Shown here in pieces: positions 55,267 to 64,000 of a stretch of 64,000 nt of DNA (the first letter of the stretch is position 1; each line of letters begins with the position of its first letter). A program made the translations under genes and the position numbers. A model generated the notes under the pieces. That model was not told where the DNA came from. It searched no databases and was given only the letters and a program-made list of their open reading frames with translations. The stretch comes from an uncultured Actinomycetes bacterium (lineage in GTDB: Bacteria > Actinomycetota > Acidimicrobiia > Acidimicrobiales > RAAP-2), in NCBI GenBank assembly GCA_903825305.1, contig CAIKAC010000023.1, positions 20,464-84,463 on the forward strand, read 5' to 3'.

Positions 55267-56544
55267 ATGCTGAAGCGTTTGGACTTGCGGGGTCATGGAT
55301 GTGATGTCGAACACCTGCTGCCTGCTCCTCAGGATCCAGGCTCCAATGTTGCGGAGGCGGTCAGCGAGATAATCGCTGACGTTAGGGTGCGGGGAGATCA
55401 AGCCCTGCTCGACTTGACGAAGCGCTTTGATCGAGTGGACCTTGTAATTATTCGCGTAGCTGACGCTGACATTGCAGCGGCCGTGGCCCGCGTTGATCCA
55501 ACCATCCTCGCGGCGCTTGAGGTTGCGTACGCCAATATTTACGCTTACCACGCCGACGAGGCGGCTTCGCCGTCGCCGCATGTCACTGATGGAGTCGTCG
55601 TGACCCATCGTGATGTTCCCGTAGAGCGCGCTGGTTGCTATGCGCCGGGCGGTCTTGCTCGCTATCCGTCATCGGTCTTGATGTGTGCGGCGCCAGCACA
55701 TGTGGCTGGGGTGCAAGAAGTCATTTTGTGCGTACCACCTACGCCTTCAGGGGCCATTGATGATGTGACGCTCGCTGCCGCCCATGTGGCGGGCATTGAT
55801 GAGGTCTACGCCATTGGAGGAGCCCAAGCCATCGCAGCGATGGCCCTCGGGACGCAAAGCATTCGTGCCGTTGATGTCATTGTAGGTCCCGGCAACTCCT
55901 ACGTCGCTGAAGCAAAGCGTCAACTCAACGGCATTGTTGGAGTGGCATCGTCATTTGCTGGCCCTTCGGAGATTGCTGTGATCGCCGATCACACGACTCC
56001 ACCCACCTATGCCGCCATTGACCTTATGGTCCAAGCAGAACATGGCCCCGACGGCATGGCATGGTTGATTACGAGCGACGAAGATGTCGCGGTAGCGGTG
56101 GAAGAAGAACTTGCGAAGATGGTTGCGGCTTCGCCACGCAAAGCCTTGCTCGAATCGACACTGACTAGCCAAGGCGTGAGTTGCCTAGTGGACAGTAGGG
56201 AAGCGGCCATGGCGGTTTCGAATTTGGTGGCGCCAGAGCATCTTGAACTGCTCGTTGAGCACTACGATGACCTGCTGGTGAATCTGAGGGCAGCCGGCGC
56301 AGTTTTTTGTGGACTCGATGCTCCTGCAAGCCTTGGCGACTATGCCGCGGGGCCGAACCACATTCTCCCTACGAACCGATCAGCTCGCTTTTCAAGCGCT
56401 TTGCGAGCCGACGACTTTCGTCGGCACATTCACGTAGTTGAAGTCTCAAGATCGGGATTCGAACGACTCGCCCCTACCGTGATGACGCTGGCGCAAGCAG
56501 AGGGACTCATAGCCCATGTCGACTCGGTGAGATTGCGATCATGA
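55267..56544 (+). CDS. hisD: histidinol dehydrogenase
   Basis: Typical HisD blocks (VSEIIADVRVRGDQALLDLTKRFD, GGAQAIAAMA, GPGNSYV, QAEHGPD, APEHLEL, GDYAAGPNHILPT). Confidence 0.95.
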   Translation: MLKRLDLRGHGCDVEHLLPAPQDPGSNVAEAVSEIIADVRVRGDQALLDLTKRFDRVDLVIIRVADADIAAAVARVDPTILAALEVAYANIYAYHADEAASPSPHVTDGVVVTHRDVPVERAGCYAPGGLARYPSSVLMCAAPAHVAGVQEVILCVPPTPSGAIDDVTLAAAHVAGIDEVYAIGGAQAIAAMALGTQSIRAVDVIVGPGNSYVAEAKRQLNGIVGVASSFAGPSEIAVIADHTTPPTYAAIDLMVQAEHGPDGMAWLITSDEDVAVAVEEELAKMVAASPRKALLESTLTSQGVSCLVDSREAAMAVSNLVAPEHLELLVEHYDDLLVNLRAAGAVFCGLDAPASLGDYAAGPNHILPTNRSARFSSALRADDFRRHIHVVEVSRSGFERLAPTVMTLAQAEGLIAHVDSVRLRS

Positions 56545-57599
56545 GCCGGATACGCGCTGATCTCTCCGCGATGGAGGGATATCACAGTGCTCAAGTAGAG
56601 GTGGCGGTGCGTCTCAACACCAACGAGTCGCCGATCGGCCTTCCTGAGCAGTACTCGGTCGCCTTGTCGCAAGCCGTTCTTGGTCAAGCGTTACACCGCT
56701 ATCCGGATCGCCAAGCGATTGCCTTGCGAACTGCGATTGCCAATATCGAGGGAGTGGACCTTTCGGAAATCTACGCCGCCAACGGTTCCAATGAGGTCAT
56801 CGAGAATCTCCTTCTGGCATTTGGTGGAGCCGGGCGATCAGCGCTGGTCTTTGAACCGAGTTATGCCCTTCACGCTCACTTGGCCCGAACAACGGCCACA
56901 GAGGTGATCGAGGTGGAGCGTCGTGATGAATTCTCACTCGACGCTCAATTGGTGGGGTTATCGGTCGCCAAGCACCAACCAGCCATTACCTTTTTGTGCT
57001 CTCCGAATAACCCCACTGGCGAAGTTGTGGACGCCAGCGTGGTCAATGCTGCGCTTGCCAACGGCCCGGGACTAGTGGTCGTGGACGAGGCCTACGTACA
57101 ATTTGCCGATTTCTCGGCAATGGCTGTACGTAATGAACAGAACCGCGATCGTTTGGTTATTCTTCGAACCTTTTCCAAAACCTGGGCCCTCGCCGGCATT
57201 CGGCTCGGGTTCTGCATCGCATCACCAGAAATAGTCTCAGGACTCGACATCGTGACCCTGCCGTATCACCTGTCAAATCTGACGCAGTTAGCTGGCGAAT
57301 TGGCGCTCGGTTTCTTGGACGATATGGCATCGCGCGTGGCCATGATTATCTCAGAACGTGAGCGAATTAGCGAAGCGTTGCTGGCCCTCGGTTTTCACGT
57401 ATGGCCAAGTCACGCGAACTTCGTCTTGTTTCGGCCACCAGACGGACAAGGGCACGCTCTCTGGGAGTCCCTAGTTCGTAGTTCAGTACTCGTTCGAGAT
57501 TGTTCAAGCTGGCCCAGGCTTGAAGGTTGTTTGCGGGTGACGGTTGGTACCCACGAAGAGAACAGTCGATTTCTTGAAGCCCTGAAGGAGGCATCATGA
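56541..57599 (+). CDS. hisC: histidinol-phosphate aminotransferase
   Basis: LNTNESP, YPD, NGSNEVI, CSPNNPTG and the FSKTWALAGIRLG PLP-lysine motif. ATGA overlaps on both sides. Confidence 0.9.
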   Translation: MSRIRADLSAMEGYHSAQVEVAVRLNTNESPIGLPEQYSVALSQAVLGQALHRYPDRQAIALRTAIANIEGVDLSEIYAANGSNEVIENLLLAFGGAGRSALVFEPSYALHAHLARTTATEVIEVERRDEFSLDAQLVGLSVAKHQPAITFLCSPNNPTGEVVDASVVNAALANGPGLVVVDEAYVQFADFSAMAVRNEQNRDRLVILRTFSKTWALAGIRLGFCIASPEIVSGLDIVTLPYHLSNLTQLAGELALGFLDDMASRVAMIISERERISEALLALGFHVWPSHANFVLFRPPDGQGHALWESLVRSSVLVRDCSSWPRLEGCLRVTVGTHEENSRFLEALKEAS

Positions 57600-58189
57600 C
57601 GAGAAGCGCGTCCACGAGTCGAAGCACGAAGGAAACGACGATTTCTGCGTCGCTTGATTTGGATGGCAGCGGCAATGCGTCAATTGCCACCGGTATTTCC
57701 TTCTTTGACCACATGTTGGAGCAGATTGCTCGTCATGGCAGCTTTGATTTGACCATTGAAGCGTCGGGAGATTTGCACGTCGATACTCACCACACCATTG
57801 AAGACGTGGGCATAGTGCTCGGCGAACTCATTGCTACCGCCCTGGGTGACAAAGTTGGTATTGCGCGGTACGCATCTCGCGTCGTCCCCCTTGACGAAGC
57901 AGCTGTCGAGGTAGTGCTTGACGTATCGGGAAGACCCTATGTCGTCTACGAGAGCGACTTCCCGGCCGACACACCTGGCCTCGGGTCACCACCTTTTGAC
58001 CCGCAATTGGCGGAAGAATTCTTTCGTGCTGTGGCGGGAAGCGGGGGCTTGACCCTGCACGTCATCAGGCAACGGGGCAAAAACGTGCATCACATCATTG
58101 AGGCCACGTTTAAGGGTTTCGCCCGAGTCCTTCATGATGCGACGCGTATTGTCAACACGCAATTGCCCTCCACCAAAGGCTCACTGTAG
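57596..58189 (+). CDS. hisB: imidazoleglycerol-phosphate dehydratase
   Basis: TKETTISASLDLDG, FFDHMLEQIARHG, GDLHVDTHHTIEDVGI, and NVHHIIEATFKGFARV. Confidence 0.95.
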   Translation: MTRSASTSRSTKETTISASLDLDGSGNASIATGISFFDHMLEQIARHGSFDLTIEASGDLHVDTHHTIEDVGIVLGELIATALGDKVGIARYASRVVPLDEAAVEVVLDVSGRPYVVYESDFPADTPGLGSPPFDPQLAEEFFRAVAGSGGLTLHVIRQRGKNVHHIIEATFKGFARVLHDATRIVNTQLPSTKGSL

Positions 58190-58200
58190 GTCGTCGTTGC

Positions 58201-58806
58201 GTGATTCACATCGTCGATTACGGGATTGGCAATTTGCGCTCAGCCGAGAAGGCACTTCAGCACTCGGGAGTCAACGCCCGACTCGTTGACGATCCTCGCG
58301 AGCTTGCTTCTGCTACTGCCGTTGTGCTGCCCGGCGTGGGTAGTTACGGCACCTGCATCGCTGCGCTTGATGCGTCGGGGTGGCGAGAACCCATTCTCGA
58401 GGTGCTCGGCGCCGGGGTGCCGTTTTTGGGCATCTGCGTAGGGTTCCAAATGCTCTTTGAGGGATCTGAAGAATCGCCCGATGCTCGTGGCCTCGGTGTG
58501 GTGAGAGGTCAAGTGCGCAAGCTTGAAGGCGCACCTAAATTGCCTCACATTCAATGGAATCGTCTTGATATCGAGCGATCATCGCGTCTGTTTCCAGTAG
58601 ATCTCGACGAGCAGTGGATGTATTTCGTCCACTCCTACGCGGCTCCGGTAACTGCAGAGACGGTGGCTACTGCGACCTATGGTTCAACGTTTAGTGCAGC
58701 GATTGAGCGAGACAACATTATGGGCGTGCAATTTCATCCCGAGAAATCTGGCAGTCAGGGCCTCGCTATGTTGGCCCGTTTCGCCGCCATGACTGGAGAG
58801 ATCTAG
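58201..58806 (+). CDS. hisH: imidazole glycerol phosphate synthase glutaminase subunit HisH
   Basis: IVDYGIGNLRSAEKAL, LPGVGSYG, GICVGFQML, and HSY...GVQFHPEKS. Confidence 0.9.
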   Translation: MIHIVDYGIGNLRSAEKALQHSGVNARLVDDPRELASATAVVLPGVGSYGTCIAALDASGWREPILEVLGAGVPFLGICVGFQMLFEGSEESPDARGLGVVRGQVRKLEGAPKLPHIQWNRLDIERSSRLFPVDLDEQWMYFVHSYAAPVTAETVATATYGSTFSAAIERDNIMGVQFHPEKSGSQGLAMLARFAAMTGEI

Positions 58807-59528
58807 TGGAACTCCTTGCAGCCATTGATTTACGAGGCGGCCAAGCAGTTCGCCTGCTTCAAGGCCGTTACGAAGATGAGACGACTTATGGGGATCCAGT
58901 CGCCCTCGCTCAGAGTTTCATCGACCAAGGTGCTTCGTGGTTGCATCTGGTGGATCTCGATGCAGCTCGAGATGGAGGACAAGCGAACCGTCCCATCATC
59001 AAAGAAATAGCCGCGATGAGTCACCTTCCCGTCGAAACCGGTGGGGGTGTGAGAAGCGTGGCCGATGTGGCTCAGCTCGTCGACGCTGGGGTGCAGCGAG
59101 TCATCGTGGGTACTGCAGCCCTCATGGATCCCGACGAATTTACCGCGATGGTTGCGGCCTTCCCAGAGCACGTAGCCGTAGGTCTTGACTACCGGATTAA
59201 GGGTGCCATGCGTGAAGTTGCCGTGCGGGGTTGGCTTGAAGGCGCTGGGCGAGATCTCCTTGATGCCCTTCGTCAGGTGGAGCAAGCTGGTGCGACGGCG
59301 GTCATCACGACGGCGATCGACCGTGATGGAACCTTGCAAGGCCCAGACCTTGACGGCCTACGAGCAGCAATGGACCTGGCCGCCATTCCGGTGATCGCTT
59401 CAGGTGGCGTTGGATCGCTTGATGACCTGACGGCTTTGCGTGAAGCGGGATGCCCTGGGGTGGTCGTCGGCAAGGCTTTGGTGGAAGGAGCCTTTTCGGT
59501 CGGCGATGCGGTAGCGCGATGCAGGTAG
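58806..59528 (+). CDS. hisA: phosphoribosyl isomerase HisA, probably the dual-substrate PriA type common in actinobacteria
   Basis: [24 protein letters not shown], and [12 protein letters not shown]. No trpF is seen among the adjacent trp genes, so PriA is an inference. Confidence 0.85.
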
Positions 59529-60289
59529 TTCGTGTGATCCCGTGCCTCGACGTTACCGACGGTCGAGTGGTCAAGGGCGTGCAATTTGTCGATCTTATTG
59601 ACGCAGGTGATCCCGTTGAACTGGCTCGACGTTATGCGGCAGAGGGTGCAGACGAAATTACCTTTCTTGACATCACCGCATCGTCTGATGGGCGAAGCAC
59701 CATGGTGGATGTGGTTCGTCGGTGTGCCGAAGAGGTCTTCGTGCCGTTAACGGTGGGTGGGGGGGTACGCAGCGTCGAAGACGCTCGCTTGCTCTTGCGA
59801 GCTGGGGCCGAAAAGGTTGGCATTAACTCAGCCGCAGTAAACGACCCATCGCTAATCACGGCCATTGCGGACGAGTTCGGATGCCAATGTGTGGTGGTGG
59901 CCATCGACGTTCGTCGCTCGGCACAGGGTTATGAGGTCTACACCCACGGTGGTCGCAGCGCCACGGGTCTCGATGCCCTTAGGTGGGTTGAGGAGGTCTG
60001 TGATCGTGGAGCTGGAGAATTGCTGGTTACTTCCATGGACCGCGATGGAACCAGAGAGGGCTATGACCTTGCATTACTCAGAGCAGTTTCGGATATTTCT
60101 TCGGTACCCCTCATCGCTTCTGGAGGCGTAGGCGGTCTTGACGACTTGGTTCGAGGTGTGAGTGAAGGCCACGCGGATGCAGTGTTGGCGGCATCCATTT
60201 TTCACTTACAAGAAGCGACGATTCAAGAGGCGAAGGACCAACTCGCTAAGGCTGGATTGAAGGTTCGACCACCAAGTGCCTCCAAGTAG
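59519..60289 (+). CDS. hisF: imidazole glycerol phosphate synthase cyclase subunit HisF
   Basis: [27 protein letters not shown], and IASGGVG. The ATG at 59519 overlaps hisA by 10 nt; the longer ORF from 59450 has a junk-like N-terminus. Confidence 0.95.
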
Positions 60290-60299
60290 TTTGTAGACC

Positions 60300-60632
60300 A
60301 TGGCAACCGCACAATCCCATGCATATGAACATGTCAGTGTTCTGTTTGATCGAGTCATGGTGAAACTAGATGGACCTGAAGGCGAGCGTCGCAGTAGGGC
60401 TGGCATTTTGATTCCAGCAACGGCCCAGATGTCGCGTCGTCTCACCCAGGCAACCGCTGTGGCCATCGGACCACATGTGAGAGCCGTCAAGATCGGGGAC
60501 GAAGTGTTCTTCAATCCTGAAGATCGCTTCGAGATTGAGATTGACGGAGAAGAATTCGTGGTGCTTCGAGAGAGGGATATCCACGCGGTGAAAGCAGCGC
60601 CCGAGGTGGGCGGAACAGGACAGTATCTCTAA
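60300..60632 (+). CDS. Cpn10/GroES-family paralog (110 aa) lacking the roof hairpin, with a C-terminal extension ending in GQYL
   Basis: Aligns by eye with M. tuberculosis and E. coli GroES: FDRVMVK vs [15 protein letters not shown] vs [18 protein letters not shown] vs GTVVAVGPG, and [32 protein letters not shown] vs [32 protein letters not shown]. It starts 10 nt after hisF and has a TAATG overlap with hisI. Confidence 0.7.
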
Positions 60633-60997
60633 TGGATGTGGTGACGCAGGGTGAATTGATGGACCTTGTGGTCTACGACGATAAGGGCCTCGTTCCCGCC
60701 GTCGTGCAAGGTCTCGACGGAACGGTCTTGATGGTGGCGTACATGAACGAAGCATCCCTTGAGCTCACGATTTCATCCGGGCGAACTTGGTTCTATTCGC
60801 GAAGTCGCCAAGAACTGTGGCCCAAAGGCGAGACCTCTGGTGAAGTGCAGCTCGTCAAGGAACTACGAATTGATTGTGATGGGGATTGCCTATTAGTAGT
60901 TGTTGAGCAACTCGGGGGCGGAGCATGTCACACGGGTGCCGTTTCGTGCTTTTTTCGCTCCCTTGACGGTGATTCGGTAGCGTCATCAGATGCTTGA
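60632..60997 (+). CDS. hisI: phosphoribosyl-AMP cyclohydrolase
   Basis: [35 protein letters not shown], and [22 protein letters not shown]. Confidence 0.9.
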
Positions 60998-62504
60998 GCT
61001 TGGCGTCACCCCCTCTCGCGAGGAGTTCCATGCCTTGGCGCAAGAGCACAACATCGTTCCTGTATTGGCTGAATTCATCGCTGACACAGTGACGCCGGTC
61101 GGCGTACTCATGGCTCTTGAATCCGAAGGTGACACTTTTTTGCTCGAATCTGTCGAGGGTGGCGATCGATGGGGCCGCTACTCGTTCGTCGGCTGTAAGC
61201 CGCTAGCGACCATCATCGCGAGAGACGGTGCCGTATCGATAGATGGTCCATTATTGGCGACCAAGGGACCGAGCATGCTGGGCGTGCTTGATGAATTGGT
61301 GGGGTCACTGCGCGTGGCTCCGGTACCGGGAATGCCGCCGCTTCATAGTGGATTTGTCGGAGCGCTGGGTTGGGAAACCGTTCGCGAAATCGAGCGCTTG
61401 GAGTCCTCGTCGATTCGAGAATCATCTCTGTTCGACTCAGCGATGATGTTGATAGGCGATGTGGTGGCTTTTGATCACTGGCGCCAAAGCGTCACCTTGT
61501 TGTCCAATGTACTCATCCCCGAGAATGCGAATCAGGCACAACTCGACCAGGCGTATGATGCCGCACTTGAGGCGATTGCGTTTCTCTTCGAACGTTGCGG
61601 CAATACGGATGTGCCGCTTGTGGCCAGTATCGATGTGTCGCACTCAGGGACAGCGGTTGCAACACCCCGCATTGATTCAGATGAATACCAGCAGTGGGTG
61701 AATGCGGCGAAGGACTTGATTCATGCTGGTGACATCTTCCAAGTTGTGCTTTCGCAGCGTTTTGACATTGTGGATACGGTGGATCCGCTGGCGGTCTATC
61801 GAGCGCTTCGCCTGTTGAATCCCAGCCCATACCTATATTTCTTTGCGTTACAGGGTGTTCACATTGTGGGCTCCTCGCCAGAAGCCATGGTTCGAGTTCG
61901 AGATGGCGTCGCCATATCGCGACCAATTGCCGGTTCTCGACCTCGAGGCGCCACGGACGAAGAGGATGTTCGCTTGTCGGGAGAGCTCCTTGAAGACCCC
62001 AAGGAGATCGCCGAACACGTCATGCTGGTGGATCTAGCCCGAAATGACTTGGGCCGTATTTGTGATTTCGGCTCCCAACACGTGGATGAGTTGATGGTCA
62101 TCGAGCGCTATAGCCACATCATGCATCTCACCAGCCAGGTTTCTGGTCGCGTTAAGGATGGACTGTCGCCAGTTGATGTGCTGAGGGCAACATTTCCTGC
62201 GGGCACTTTGTCAGGCGCCCCAAAGGTTCGAGCCATGGAAATCATTGAAGATCTAGAGCCCTCCCATCGGGGCCTCTATGGCGGTGCTGTTGGTTACATT
62301 GACCTTTCAGGGAACCTCGATATGGCCATCGCGATTCGCACCATGGTGGTAGACGACCAAGGCGCTGCATCGGTGCAGGCCGGGGCCGGCATCGTGGCCG
62401 ATTCGGATCCCCTGTCTGAAGATCGAGAATGTCACGCTAAATCAGCAGCAATTTTGGCGGCTGTGGCAGTCTCAAAAGCCTTCGAAGGAACTGCTCAACG
62501 ATGA
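60990..62504 (+). CDS. trpE: anthranilate synthase component I
   Basis: [54 protein letters not shown], and [10 protein letters not shown]. Overlaps hisI by 8 nt. Confidence 0.95.
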
Positions 62505-63328
62505 GCATCACCTCGCCGGGCGCGTGGGCCACGTTGCAACGAGGCGTGGTGCGCGTTAGCGGTTCTGGCGCTCAGGCATATCTTCAATCACAGCTCAGTC
62601 AAGATCTCACAAGCTTGGCAGACGAGGCCGCTTGCTGGGCGTTGCTTCTCTCGCCAGAAGGTCGACTTGGCTTTCTGGTGAGAGCAGTCAAAGTCCGAGA
62701 CACTGACTGGTTGGTACTTGGGCCTCGAGGGGCTGATGACGCGATCAAGGCAAGGTTGAAGCGCTTTGCCATCCGCGTTGATGCCACCTTCGAGCTCGAA
62801 ACCTGGTGGCACCTTGTGGTGGGTCCAAATACGCAAGAGGTTGCTGGCAGTTTTGCTATCCCCTCCGCATTGGAAAGCTATGGATGTTCTGAATGGCTTA
62901 CTGCTGAGGAAGTGAGCCTTGGTGGCGACCGAGAGGACTACGAGCGTGCGATGCAGCAACATCTCGCGCTGCCAAGCATTGACGACAGCGATGTCCGCGA
63001 GTCAATGGTCCCCGCAGAGCTAGGCCCGTCGGTAATGGCTCAGGCGGTGTCTTTCACCAAAGGTTGCTACCCTGGCCAAGAATTGGTGGCACGCATTGAT
63101 GCGCGCTCAGCATTGCCGCCGAATCCAGTTGTGGGAATCGAGGCTTCGCTAGCGCTCAATGACGGTGAGGAGATTCTGGTTGGCTCAGATGTCGTGGGCT
63201 CTGTCCTCGGCACGTTGGTGAGCAATGGCGAAGGTTCGTGGCGTGGTCTTGGTGTCGTGAAGCGATCTGCGGTGGCCGAGCGGCTTGCGTACCGGGCTGG
63301 CACTCTTCAAACTTTGCCCCTCGTTTGA
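62501..63328 (+). CDS. ygfZ: YgfZ/CAF17-type folate-binding protein (GcvT-like fold)
   Basis: VRVSGSGAQAYLQSQLSQDL N-terminus and the family signature FTKGCYPGQELVARIDARS. ATGA overlap with trpE. Confidence 0.75.
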   Translation: MSITSPGAWATLQRGVVRVSGSGAQAYLQSQLSQDLTSLADEAACWALLLSPEGRLGFLVRAVKVRDTDWLVLGPRGADDAIKARLKRFAIRVDATFELETWWHLVVGPNTQEVAGSFAIPSALESYGCSEWLTAEEVSLGGDREDYERAMQQHLALPSIDDSDVRESMVPAELGPSVMAQAVSFTKGCYPGQELVARIDARSALPPNPVVGIEASLALNDGEEILVGSDVVGSVLGTLVSNGEGSWRGLGVVKRSAVAERLAYRAGTLQTLPLV

Positions 63329-63365
63329 GCCCAATTCAGGCGACGAGCGCCACTACGCTGGAAAA

Positions 63366-64000
63366 GTGGCAACCTACCTCGACTCCATCCTGGCGTATCA
63401 CCGTGATCAAGCCGCAAGCGATGCCCGGGATGCAGATGCCTTACGCGAACAAGCACTGGGGTGTGGACGTTCTCGCCCCTTTGCAGCCAACCTCAGGTCA
63501 GAAGGGTTATCGGTAATCGCGGAGCTCAAGCGCCAAAGCCCGTCAAAAGGAATCCTTGGAGGTGCCATCGACGCGGCAACGGTTGCCGCTGAGTATGAAC
63601 GAGGTGGCGCTCGAGCTATCAGTGTGCTCACCGATGAACCTCACTTTGGTGGCAGCGCCCGAGACGTAATCACGGTTAAGGCGTCCTGTGAGTTGCCTGT
63701 ACTTCGTAAGGACTTTTGCGTCGATATTCGCCACATCTATGACGCCAAGATCATGGGAGCCGACGCCATTTTGCTCATCGTTGCGGCTCTCGAGCAGCAC
63801 GAACTTCAAGAGATGGCACAAGTGGCAAGAGACGTCGGTGTGGCGGCACTGGTGGAGGTTCACGATGAGGACGAAGCACGACGAGCACTTGATATCGGCG
63901 CGGACATTATCGGGGTGAACCAACGTGATCTGGTTACGTTCACGGTTGATCATGAGCGAGCATGTCGCGTGGCTGCATCACTGCCTTCTTCGGTCATTCG
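63366..64000 (+). CDS. trpC: indole-3-glycerol phosphate synthase (partial, runs off the window end)
   Basis: I translated this myself because it is not in the ORF track: VATYLDSILAYHRDQAA...LSVIAELKRQSPSKG...ISVLTDEPHFGGS...PVLRKDF...GADAILLIVAAL...VEVHDEDE...IGVNQRDL. The GTG start at 63366 is tentative. Confidence 0.85.
   Translation, partial: MATYLDSILAYHRDQAASDARDADALREQALGCGRSRPFAANLRSEGLSVIAELKRQSPSKGILGGAIDAATVAAEYERGGARAISVLTDEPHFGGSARDVITVKASCELPVLRKDFCVDIRHIYDAKIMGADAILLIVAALEQHELQEMAQVARDVGVAALVEVHDEDEARRALDIGADIIGVNQRDLVTFTVDHERACRVAASLPSSVI

What the first reader, a model, noticed from the sequence alone, without database searches (positions are those of the whole stretch)
60300..60632. 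GroES/Cpn10 paralog inside the his operon ends in GQYL, the actinobacterial 20S proteasome docking motif
Seen in sequence:
- The 110-aa ORF between hisF and hisI is clearly Cpn10-like. The mobile-loop region AGILIP and the C-terminal beta strands both align with GroES.
- The roof hairpin is deleted.
- After the last Cpn10 strand there is a Gly/Pro-rich linker followed by the terminal residues GQYL (…[15 protein letters not shown]).
- It is the only protein in the window with this terminus.

Established knowledge:
- Mycobacterial Mpa/ARC and the ATP-independent activator Bpa (PafE) both end in GQYL. They need this motif to insert into pockets between alpha subunits of the 20S core particle.
- GroES assembles as a heptamer, and the 20S alpha ring is also heptameric.

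Inference: a Cpn10-fold heptamer carrying seven flexible GQYL tails would match the symmetry of the proteasome alpha ring. The hexameric Mpa and the dodecameric Bpa do not. It could therefore be an undescribed proteasome cap, gate regulator or adaptor rather than a GroEL co-chaperonin.

Speculation: its tight translational coupling to histidine biosynthesis genes would fit the proposed role of the actinobacterial proteasome in amino acid recycling during starvation.
Basis: partly seen in the sequence, partly recalled or inferred. Interest (0 to 1): 0.8.

Follow-up and report, generated by a model that had tools for sequence, protein, structure and literature searches.

The report
Roofless GroES paralog with proteasome-docking tail
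A small, widely conserved GroES-like protein of Acidimicrobiia has lost the roof of the GroES dome and gained a flexible tail ending in the motif that bacterial proteasome activators use to dock, so it is probably an undescribed seven-fold cap or adaptor for the 20S proteasome, though binding is untested.

Summary
The 110-aa ORF (60300-60632, +) is real and has a Cpn10 fold (Pfam 58.7 bits; Foldseek hits to GroES/Hsp10). Compared with canonical GroES it has:
- a 10-residue roof-hairpin deletion;
- an intact GroEL-type mobile loop (GILIPATA);
- a 13-residue low-confidence tail ending GTGQYL.

It is one member of a large family. At least 584 GTDB species carry a relative, and the best 80 are all Acidimicrobiia. 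Of 423 retrieved sequences, 362 end G-x-Y-L; the rest look like truncated or frameshifted gene calls. Tail length is almost fixed at 13-14 aa, while the linker sequence varies. The last six residues equal those of M. tuberculosis Bpa.

Acidimicrobiia encode complete ARC-Dop-Pup-PrcB-PrcA-PafA clusters. Their ARC ends TGQYL, and the PrcA pocket lysine is invariant in six Acidimicrobiia-clade sequences.

The gene is never next to groEL, misses every NCBIfam GroES cut-off, and no paper I found describes it.

Not shown: prcAB in the same genome, heptamer formation, or any binding. The his-operon position holds only in Acidimicrobiia.

Best reading (about 0.5): a Cpn10-derived, ATP-independent 20S cap or adaptor. 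The preserved mobile loop keeps a GroEL-linked role open.

The parts
60300..60632 (+). Cpn10-like ORF ('cpn10L'), 110 aa plus stop codon
   Evidence: ORF list and sequence. Pfam PF00166 at 58.7 bits. AF2 model with core pLDDT about 90. Foldseek top hits are Hsp10/GroES, TM about 0.6.
60369..60443 (+). Mobile loop (residues 24-48, [25 protein letters not shown]). It is 2+2 residues longer than in canonical GroES.
   Evidence: Alignment with three canonical GroES. Low pLDDT of 48-64. G28, E29, R30, G35, I36, I38, P39, A40 and T41 are invariant in 61 sequences.
60405..60413 (+). Hydrophobic tripeptide I36-L37-I38, at the position of the GroEL-contacting IVL/LVI of GroES
   Evidence: Alignment. 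Invariant or nearly invariant columns. That this tripeptide contacts GroEL in canonical GroES is established knowledge.
60468..60482 (+). Site of the roof-hairpin deletion (G57-P58-H59 | V60-R61). Ten residues present in canonical GroES are missing here.
   Evidence: Alignment A4. The same gap is present in all family members shown.
60591..60629 (+). C-terminal tail (residues 98-110, [13 protein letters not shown]): a variable linker followed by a conserved end
   Evidence: pLDDT about 51. The linker columns vary while G105, T106, G107, Y109 and L110 are invariant or nearly so. Tail length is 13 aa in 298 and 14 aa in 44 of 352 measured sequences.
60618..60629 (+). Terminal motif G107-Q108-Y109-L110
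   Evidence: 362 of 423 family sequences end G-x-Y-L and 343 end T-G-x-Y-L. The last six residues are identical to those of M. tuberculosis Bpa (PDB 6bgl). Mpa ends LGQYL.
59534..60289 (+). hisF, the upstream neighbour, 10 bases before the ORF
   Evidence: NCBIfam TIGR00735 at 343 bits. Gene call in L081.
60632..60997 (+). hisI, the downstream neighbour. Its ATG overlaps the stop codon of the ORF (TAATG).
   Evidence: NCBIfam NF000768 at 148 bits. Sequence.

Best explanation
The gene encodes a diverged Cpn10 (GroES) paralog that most likely still forms the seven-membered Cpn10 ring. Loss of the roof hairpin would leave a wide central opening. Each subunit carries a flexible 13-residue tail ending in T-G-(L/Q)-Y-L-COOH.

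I propose that the seven tails insert into the seven pockets between alpha subunits of the actinobacterial 20S proteasome (PrcA ring). Mpa/ARC and Bpa/PafE dock in the same way through their GQYL ends. On this reading the ring is an ATP-independent, symmetry-matched cap, gate regulator or adaptor.

The strongly conserved mobile loops would then do one of three things: recruit substrates, contact the alpha ring, or bind GroEL.

- **Shown:** the fold; the roof deletion; conservation of the tail and its fixed length; presence of the complete Pup-proteasome system with a conserved pocket lysine in the same class and families.
- **Inferred:** heptamer formation, docking, and any effect on degradation.
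For: 1. **Motif conservation.** The motif is at the extreme C-terminus in 362 of 423 family sequences and the penultimate Tyr is invariant. The other 59 look like truncated, fused or frameshifted gene calls.
2. **Docking-tail pattern.** The linker sequence varies but tail length is fixed at 13-14 aa, and the model has low confidence there.
3. **Match to known docking ends.**
   - GTGQYL equals the last six residues of Bpa.
   - ARC proteins of Acidimicrobiia end (S/T)GQYL.
   - GLYL fits the hydrophobic-Tyr-X rule.
   - Gln is reported as dispensable (PMC12288473).
4. **Proteasome in the lineage.**
   - PrcA clusters are named Acidimicrobiia, Acidimicrobiaceae, Ilumatobacteraceae, IMCC26256 and IMCC26207.
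   - A PrcA profile found 8000 hits, including one named Microthrixaceae.
   - ARC-Dop-Pup-PrcB-PrcA-PafA clusters were seen in NCBI genome assemblies (GCA accessions).
   - cpn10L occurs under the same family names.
5. **Docking pocket.** The PrcA lysine that pairs with the activator's C-terminus (Mtb K52, LxKISE) is invariant in six Acidimicrobiia-clade PrcA sequences taken from metagenome contigs.
6. **Tail loss elsewhere.** ARC proteins on low-GC actinobacterial loci with no prcAB in the fetched stretch have lost the YL end (NPFA, NSFA, NQFL, GQIH). This fits a motif that is kept only where a 20S core is present.
7. **Not the housekeeping GroES.** It falls below all NCBIfam GroES cut-offs. 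None of 96 loci has groEL. The roof is deleted.
8. **Precedent.** A Cpn10 ring caps a seven-fold protease ring: chloroplast Cpn11/20/23 on ClpP (PDB 7ekq).
Against: - No genome was shown to hold both cpn10L and prcAB. Co-occurrence is established only at class and family level.
- No proteasome gene lies within 10 kb of cpn10L in 83 loci or in the 64-kb window. Neighbours in four contexts are biosynthetic or redox genes.
- The GroEL-type mobile loop is one of the best conserved parts of the protein. That argues for a retained chaperonin-linked function.
- Heptamer formation and the direction in which the tails leave the ring were not modelled.
- A conserved aromatic C-terminus could bind another partner or a neighbouring subunit.
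Confidence: 0.5

Rival explanations
1. It is a specialised GroEL co-chaperonin. The ring binds GroEL through its canonical mobile loops. The open roof and the tail modify the folding chamber or recruit particular clients, with no link to the proteasome.
For: The central mobile-loop sequence G-I-L/V-I-P-x-T-A matches canonical GroES and is nearly invariant. All structural motifs of Cpn10 are kept. A roofless co-chaperonin that works with GroEL exists: T4 Gp31, a Foldseek hit. C-terminal extensions on GroES also exist: H. pylori HspA (PMC5116745).
Against: It does not explain why the extreme C-terminus matches the proteasome docking motif residue for residue, with the tail fixed in length. The gene is never adjacent to groEL. 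It scores far below the GroES equivalog cut-offs.
Confidence: 0.22
2. It caps ClpP1P2 rather than the 20S. The seven mobile loops insert into the seven hydrophobic clefts of a ClpP ring, as the chloroplast Cpn11/20/23 complex does, and regulate Clp proteolysis.
For: The best PDB sequence match of the window protein is Chlamydomonas Cpn20 from the ClpP-co-chaperonin complex (7ekq_R, E=4.4e-15, against about 2e-8 for bacterial GroES). That complex binds ClpP through its mobile loops and inhibits proteolysis.
Against: ClpP docking uses internal loops, not C-terminal ends. The conserved G-x-Y-L-COOH has no known role at ClpP. In that study E. coli GroES had no effect on the chloroplast ClpP. An open roof would not block the pore.
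Confidence: 0.06
3. The tail serves something else. It may pack into a neighbouring subunit to stabilise a ring that lost its roof, or it may bind a non-protease partner such as an enzyme of the His/Trp cluster in which the gene is embedded.
For: The hisF-cpn10L-hisI-trpE order is kept in more than 70 of 80 Acidimicrobiia genomes, and start and stop codons overlap or abut. No proteasome gene is ever adjacent.
Against: The his context is absent in the Actinocrinis assembly and in two unassigned divergent members, yet the tail is kept there. The monomer model gives the tail low confidence rather than a packed position. The identity with Bpa/ARC ends would have to be coincidence.
Confidence: 0.15
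4. The GQYL ending is a chance feature of one divergent GroES copy or of a miscalled ORF.
For: A single G-x-Y-L terminus is expected roughly once in every 6000 proteins, so a lone case in a whole genome would not be remarkable.
Against: The family has 420 clusters at 50% identity with E<1e-10 and relatives in at least 584 species. The motif is kept in all intact members down to 47% identity.
Confidence: 0.01

Closest known systems
GroES / Cpn10 co-chaperonin (Pfam PF00166)
   Same: Same fold and the same strand motifs (LxDRVLV, GD.V.F, EEY.IL.E.DI.AV). Mobile loop with a hydrophobic tripeptide.
   Different: Roof hairpin deleted. Loop 2+2 residues longer and rich in Arg. A 10-residue C-terminal extension ending G-x-Y-L. 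Below all NCBIfam GroES cut-offs. Not in a groESL operon.
Bpa / PafE (Rv3780), the ATP-independent bacterial proteasome activator
   Same: Small, non-enzymatic protein expected to form a ring, with a flexible C-terminal tail. The last six residues are identical (GTGQYL). Its gene is also not linked to the proteasome genes.
   Different: Unrelated fold: Bpa is a helical bundle that forms a dodecamer (review text). cpn10L is a beta-barrel expected to form a heptamer. Most family members end GLYL.
Mpa / ARC proteasomal ATPase
   Same: C-terminal (S/T)-G-Q-Y-L end, including in Acidimicrobiia.
   Different: ARC is a hexameric AAA+ unfoldase of about 570-610 aa that recognises Pup. cpn10L has no ATPase domain.
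11S activators (PA26 / PA28) of eukaryotic proteasomes (from my own knowledge)
   Same: Heptameric, ATP-independent rings with a central channel, docked through seven C-terminal tails in the alpha-ring pockets. This is the same symmetry logic proposed here.
   Different: No sequence or fold relationship. 11S tails lack the Hb-Y-X motif, and gate opening needs an activation loop.
Chloroplast Cpn11/20/23 co-chaperonin capping ClpP (PDB 7ekq)
   Same: A Cpn10-type seven-fold dome sits on a seven-fold self-compartmentalising protease. Best PDB sequence match to the window protein.
   Different: That contact is made by mobile loops in ClpP clefts and inhibits proteolysis. It has no C-terminal docking motif, and the roof is present.
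Bacteriophage T4 Gp31 and H. pylori HspA
   Same: Gp31 is a co-chaperonin without the roof hairpin (a Foldseek hit; the roof loss is from my own knowledge). HspA is a GroES with a functional C-terminal extension that projects radially from the heptamer.
   Different: Gp31 has no tail motif. The HspA extension is a His/Cys-rich nickel-binding domain.

Membership tests
Cpn10 / GroES superfamily (PF00166) | Match to the Pfam Cpn10 model above the gathering score | tested here: met
   58.7 bits against 21.1; covers profile positions 3-92 of 93.
Cpn10 / GroES superfamily (PF00166) | GroES beta-barrel fold | tested here: met
   AF2 model with core pLDDT about 90. The top 35 Foldseek hits are all Cpn10/Hsp10/Gp31, TM about 0.55-0.64.
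Canonical GroES (GroEL co-chaperonin, NCBIfam equivalogs) | Score above the curated GroES equivalog or subfamily cut-offs | tested here: not met
   Best is 44.4 bits against a cut-off of 96. All 15 GroES models are missed.
Canonical GroES (GroEL co-chaperonin, NCBIfam equivalogs) | Mobile loop with a hydrophobic tripeptide for GroEL binding | tested here: met
   GILIPATA aligns with SGLVIPDTA and GGIVLTGSA and is nearly invariant. Actual binding was not tested.
Canonical GroES (GroEL co-chaperonin, NCBIfam equivalogs) | Roof beta-hairpin closing the dome | tested here: not met
   A 10-residue gap at this position in all members aligned.
Canonical GroES (GroEL co-chaperonin, NCBIfam equivalogs) | Gene immediately upstream of groEL | tested here: not met
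   No GroEL match in the window or in any of 245 fetched loci, 96 of which carry cpn10L.
Canonical GroES (GroEL co-chaperonin, NCBIfam equivalogs) | Homo-heptameric ring | not testable with these tools
   Only monomer prediction is available. The N- and C-terminal interface strands are conserved.
Bacterial proteasome interactors with a GQYL / Hb-Y-X end (functional class of Mpa/ARC and Bpa/PafE) | G-Q-Y-L or hydrophobic-Tyr-X at the extreme C-terminus, conserved in orthologs | tested here: met
   362 of 423 sequences end G-x-Y-L (320 TGLYL, 19 TGQYL). Identical to the Bpa end.
Bacterial proteasome interactors with a GQYL / Hb-Y-X end (functional class of Mpa/ARC and Bpa/PafE) | Motif carried on a flexible, exposed segment | tested here: met
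   pLDDT about 51 for residues 101-110. Linker sequence is variable.
Bacterial proteasome interactors with a GQYL / Hb-Y-X end (functional class of Mpa/ARC and Bpa/PafE) | Occurs only in organisms that encode prcA/prcB | tested here: inconclusive
   Both are found in Acidimicrobiia, Acidimicrobiaceae and Ilumatobacteraceae. No single genome or contig was shown to hold both, and the attempts failed.
Bacterial proteasome interactors with a GQYL / Hb-Y-X end (functional class of Mpa/ARC and Bpa/PafE) | Physical, motif-dependent binding to the 20S alpha ring and stimulation of degradation | not testable with these tools
   Needs biochemistry or a multimer model.
Bpa/PafE protein family or ARC AAA+ family (homology) | Sequence or fold homology to Bpa or to ARC | tested here: not met
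   The only family matched is Cpn10. Similarity to Bpa is limited to the last six residues.

The most novel reading that the evidence does not exclude
The ring is a physical coupler between the chaperonin and the proteasome.
- Its preserved mobile loops bind the seven apical domains of GroEL.
- Its seven G-x-Y-L tails bind the seven alpha-subunit pockets of the 20S.
- The missing roof turns the GroES dome into an open conduit.

Proteins that fail to fold in GroEL could then be handed directly to the proteasome without ATP-dependent unfoldases or Pup. From the strand order I infer that the C-terminus leaves the subunit on the side opposite the mobile loop. This was not modelled.
Probability: 0.12. 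Interest if true: 0.95.

Novelty: new variant of a known kind. Interest (0 to 1): 0.78.

Why it matters
Only three bacterial proteasome interactors are described (Mpa/ARC, Bpa/PafE, Cpa), and all were found in mycobacteria. Reviews up to March 2026 list no others.

Mpa is a hexamer and Bpa a dodecamer on a seven-fold alpha ring, and reviews describe restricted or weak engagement of both with 20S in vitro. A Cpn10-derived ring with seven docking tails would be the first symmetry-matched bacterial activator.

It would also be a second independent case, after chloroplast Cpn20-ClpP, of a co-chaperonin fold recruited to a protease. It would link folding and degradation in a large, mostly uncultured actinobacterial class.

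The hypothesis is directly testable with recombinant proteins. The family is annotated everywhere as 'co-chaperone GroES', which hides it.

Tried and rejected
1. **Proteasome genes near the gene.** tblastn with M. tuberculosis PrcA, PrcB, Mpa, Pup and Bpa found nothing in the window or in 83 cpn10L loci. The Bpa and Mpa queries were checked against PDB entries and were exact.
2. **Same-contig proof by matching contig lengths** between cpn10L hits and ARC/PrcA hits. No length at megabase scale is shared. The one match, 28,971 bp for L093 and P0025, turned out to be two different records.
3. **Same-assembly proof by looking up plausible pairs.** P0019 against P0610 and P0635 share no sample or assembly.
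4. **Tetranucleotide similarity to pick the window organism's ARC locus**. It was misleading: the top locus, L085, is Nitrospira.
5. **Literature.** GQYL or HbYX combined with GroES or Cpn10, and bacterial proteasome activator combined with GroES and heptamer, returned only general reviews.
6. **Canonical groES/groEL in the fetched DNA.** None was present, so 'a second, canonical GroES exists in the same genome' could not be checked.
7. **Rejected: a universal functional link to histidine synthesis.** It fails in the Actinocrinis assembly and in two unassigned divergent members.
8. **Rejected: chance.**

Full report
**1. The observation**

The ORF at 60300-60632 (+) is real and encodes 110 aa ending ...[15 protein letters not shown].
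- It starts 10 bases after hisF (59534-60289), and its TAA overlaps the ATG of hisI (TAATG). Both neighbours pass their NCBIfam cut-offs.
- Downstream come trpE, a YgfZ-like gene, trpC, trpF, trpB and trpA. The gene therefore sits inside a long his/trp gene string.
- It matches Pfam Cpn10 over almost the whole model (58.7 bits, E=5.8e-16).
- Its PDB sequence matches with E below 0.05 are all Cpn10/GroES proteins.
- It is the only ORF of at least 60 codons in any frame of the window that ends in Tyr plus a hydrophobic residue.

**2. Anatomy**

I aligned it with GroES of M. tuberculosis, E. coli and T. thermophilus. The alignment shows four things:
- The strand motifs of Cpn10 are all kept.
- The mobile loop is kept, is 2+2 residues longer, and is Arg-rich. 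Its hydrophobic centre, GILIPATA, is preserved.
- Ten residues of the roof hairpin are missing.
- The chain extends 10 residues beyond the canonical C-terminus.

An AlphaFold2 model built from 61 family sequences gives the beta core a pLDDT of about 90, the mobile loop 48-64 and the last ten residues about 51. Foldseek returns only Hsp10/GroES structures at the top (TM about 0.6). T4 Gp31 and the Cpn11/20/23 chains of the Chlamydomonas ClpP complex also appear.

**3. It is a family, and the tail is its hallmark**

*Size and spread*
- A search of 5.8 billion proteins gave 3236 hits. All 120 best hits (64-95% identity) end GLYL (108) or GQYL (12).
- An exhaustive profile search of 50%-identity representatives gave 420 clusters with E<1e-10. 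Every intact one ends TG(L/Q/M)YL. The exceptions look like frameshifted, fused or truncated calls.
- A scan of one genome per GTDB species found relatives in at least 584 species. The best 80 are all Acidimicrobiia genomes assembled from metagenomes.
- A more distant branch is Ilumatobacteraceae, and one member is from Actinocrinis, class Actinomycetes.

*Tail statistics over all 423 family sequences fetched*
- 362 end G-x-Y-L and 343 end T-G-x-Y-L.
- The distance from the last strand to the C-terminus is 13 residues in 298 sequences and 14 in 44.
- The residues between the strand and the motif vary freely.

A variable linker of fixed length, carrying an invariant end at the very C-terminus, is what a docking tail looks like.

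**4. Comparison with known docking ends**
- M. tuberculosis Bpa ends ...GHGTGQYL and Mpa ends ...NLGQYL. I confirmed both against PDB sequences.
- The window protein therefore shares its last six residues with Bpa.
- The family's commoner ending, GLYL, fits the hydrophobic-Tyr-X rule of archaeal and eukaryotic activators.
- The Gln of GQYL is reported to be dispensable (PMC12288473).

**5. Does the lineage have a proteasome?**

The window and the 83 loci then held contain no proteasome gene. I therefore fetched ARC loci from metagenomes with a Walker-A DNA pattern biased towards mid-GC genomes.
- Most loci carry ARC followed by dop, pup, prcB and prcA.
- Cluster look-ups placed several of their PrcA proteins in Acidimicrobiia: 'Acidimicrobiia bacterium', strains IMCC26256 and IMCC26207, Ilumatobacteraceae/BACL27 and Acidimicrobiaceae.
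- A profile of six Acidimicrobiia-clade PrcA sequences found 8000 relatives, including one named Microthrixaceae.
- Two look-ups showed the full TrmI-ferredoxin-ARC-Dop-Pup-PrcB-PrcA-...-PafA cluster in NCBI genome assemblies (GCA accessions).
- Acidimicrobiia ARC proteins end (S/T)GQYL.
- The PrcA lysine that pairs with the activator's C-terminus (Mtb K52) is invariant in the six sequences.
- As an internal control, ARC proteins on low-GC actinobacterial loci with no prcAB in the fetched stretch have lost the YL end.

So the class, and the named families in which cpn10L occurs, do encode 20S. What I could not obtain is one genome or contig shown to hold both genes. Length matching and paired look-ups failed, and one apparent match was a coincidence.

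**6. Evidence about a GroEL role**

*Against a housekeeping role*
- The protein scores 44 bits against NCBIfam GroES cut-offs of 96-215.
- No groEL lies next to it in any of 96 loci.
- The roof is gone.

*For a retained GroEL contact*
- The mobile loop, the element that contacts GroEL in canonical GroES, is one of the most conserved parts of the family. G28, E29, R30, G35, I36, I38, P39, A40 and T41 are invariant in 61 sequences.

A retained contact with GroEL, or use of the loop on another hydrophobic groove, is therefore a live possibility. It is compatible with proteasome docking.

**7. Gene context**

In more than 70 of 80 Acidimicrobiia genomes the order is hisD-C-B-H-A-F, cpn10L, hisI, trpE. 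Outside that class the context changes:
- In Actinocrinis and in another divergent member (lineage not determined), the gene lies beside a divergently transcribed AhpC/Bcp peroxiredoxin gene and a small gene.
- In a third divergent member it lies between a DtxR-type repressor gene and an aminotransferase gene.

M. tuberculosis has bcpB between hisI and trpE (my own knowledge), so the bcp neighbourhood may be a relic of the same ancestral region. The his position thus looks like inherited synteny, not evidence for a role in amino-acid recycling. The bpa gene is likewise unlinked to proteasome genes in M. tuberculosis (my own knowledge).

**8. Precedent and literature**
- The best PDB sequence match is Chlamydomonas Cpn20 from entry 7ekq. 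In that structure the Cpn11/20/23 dome caps the seven-fold chloroplast ClpP ring through its mobile loops and slows proteolysis (bioRxiv 10.1101/2021.07.26.453741). A Cpn10 ring on a protease ring is therefore not without precedent.
- H. pylori HspA shows that C-terminal extensions project radially from the GroES heptamer (PMC5116745).
- Full-text searches for GQYL or HbYX together with GroES or Cpn10 found no description of this family.
- Reviews of 2021, 2025 and 2026 list only Mpa/ARC, Bpa/PafE and Cpa.
- Databases call these proteins 'co-chaperone GroES'.

**9. Verdict**

The tail is the defining, length-constrained feature of a large Cpn10 subfamily centred on Acidimicrobiia, a class that has the complete Pup-proteasome system.

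| Reading | Probability |
|---|---|
| Cpn10-derived, probably heptameric, ATP-independent cap or adaptor docking on the 20S alpha ring through its G-x-Y-L tails | about 0.5 |
| Purely GroEL-linked role | about 0.22 |
| Another partner, or a structural role for the tail | about 0.15 |
| ClpP cap | about 0.06 |

The most novel reading still open is a GroEL-to-proteasome coupler (about 0.12). Docking, ring formation and same-genome co-occurrence remain to be shown.

Noticed in passing
window 55267-64000 and L081 (10 kb beyond the window): A single long string of biosynthetic genes: hisD-hisC-hisB-hisH-hisA-hisF-cpn10L-hisI-trpE-(YgfZ/CAF17-like, 62501-63328)-trpC-trpF-trpB-trpA. Many starts and stops overlap. 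The YgfZ-like gene between trpE and trpC is kept in most Acidimicrobiia loci.
   Followed up: partly
L084-L203 (ARC loci from metagenomes): ARC C-termini sort by lineage. Acidimicrobiia and Actinomycetes end (S/T)GQYL. Nitrospira ends TGHYL (26 loci). Low-GC actinobacterial loci with no prcAB in the fetched stretch end NPFA, NSFA, NQFL or GQIH, so the docking motif is lost there.
   Followed up: partly
L224-L241 (Acidimicrobiia Pup-proteasome loci): Three 5-oxoprolinase-like genes (LamB_YcsF, CT_C_D, CT_A_B) lie between prcA and pafA. A ThiS/SAMP2-like small protein with a TtuA-like ATPase and a Lon substrate-binding-domain protein lie upstream of ARC.
   Followed up: no
L242 (Actinocrinis sp., GCA_036501535.1) and L245: Outside Acidimicrobiia the cpn10L gene sits next to a divergently transcribed AhpC/Bcp peroxiredoxin gene and a small gene (DUF3618 in L242). 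This is a second recurring context, possibly a relic of the hisI-bcpB-trpE region seen in M. tuberculosis.
   Followed up: partly
L093 versus L212: Two unrelated metagenome contigs have exactly the same length (28,971 bp). One carries ARC and the other cpn10L. Matching contigs by length alone is unsafe at this size.
   Followed up: yes
clusters 2 and 3: A PrcA cluster from the ARC scan carries the label 'Candidatus Saccharimonadia'. Another cluster mixes 232-aa alpha subunits with 462-aa PafA proteins labelled 'Candidatus Entotheonellia'. These point to Pup-proteasome loci, or to mis-binned contigs, outside Actinomycetota and Nitrospirota.
   Followed up: no
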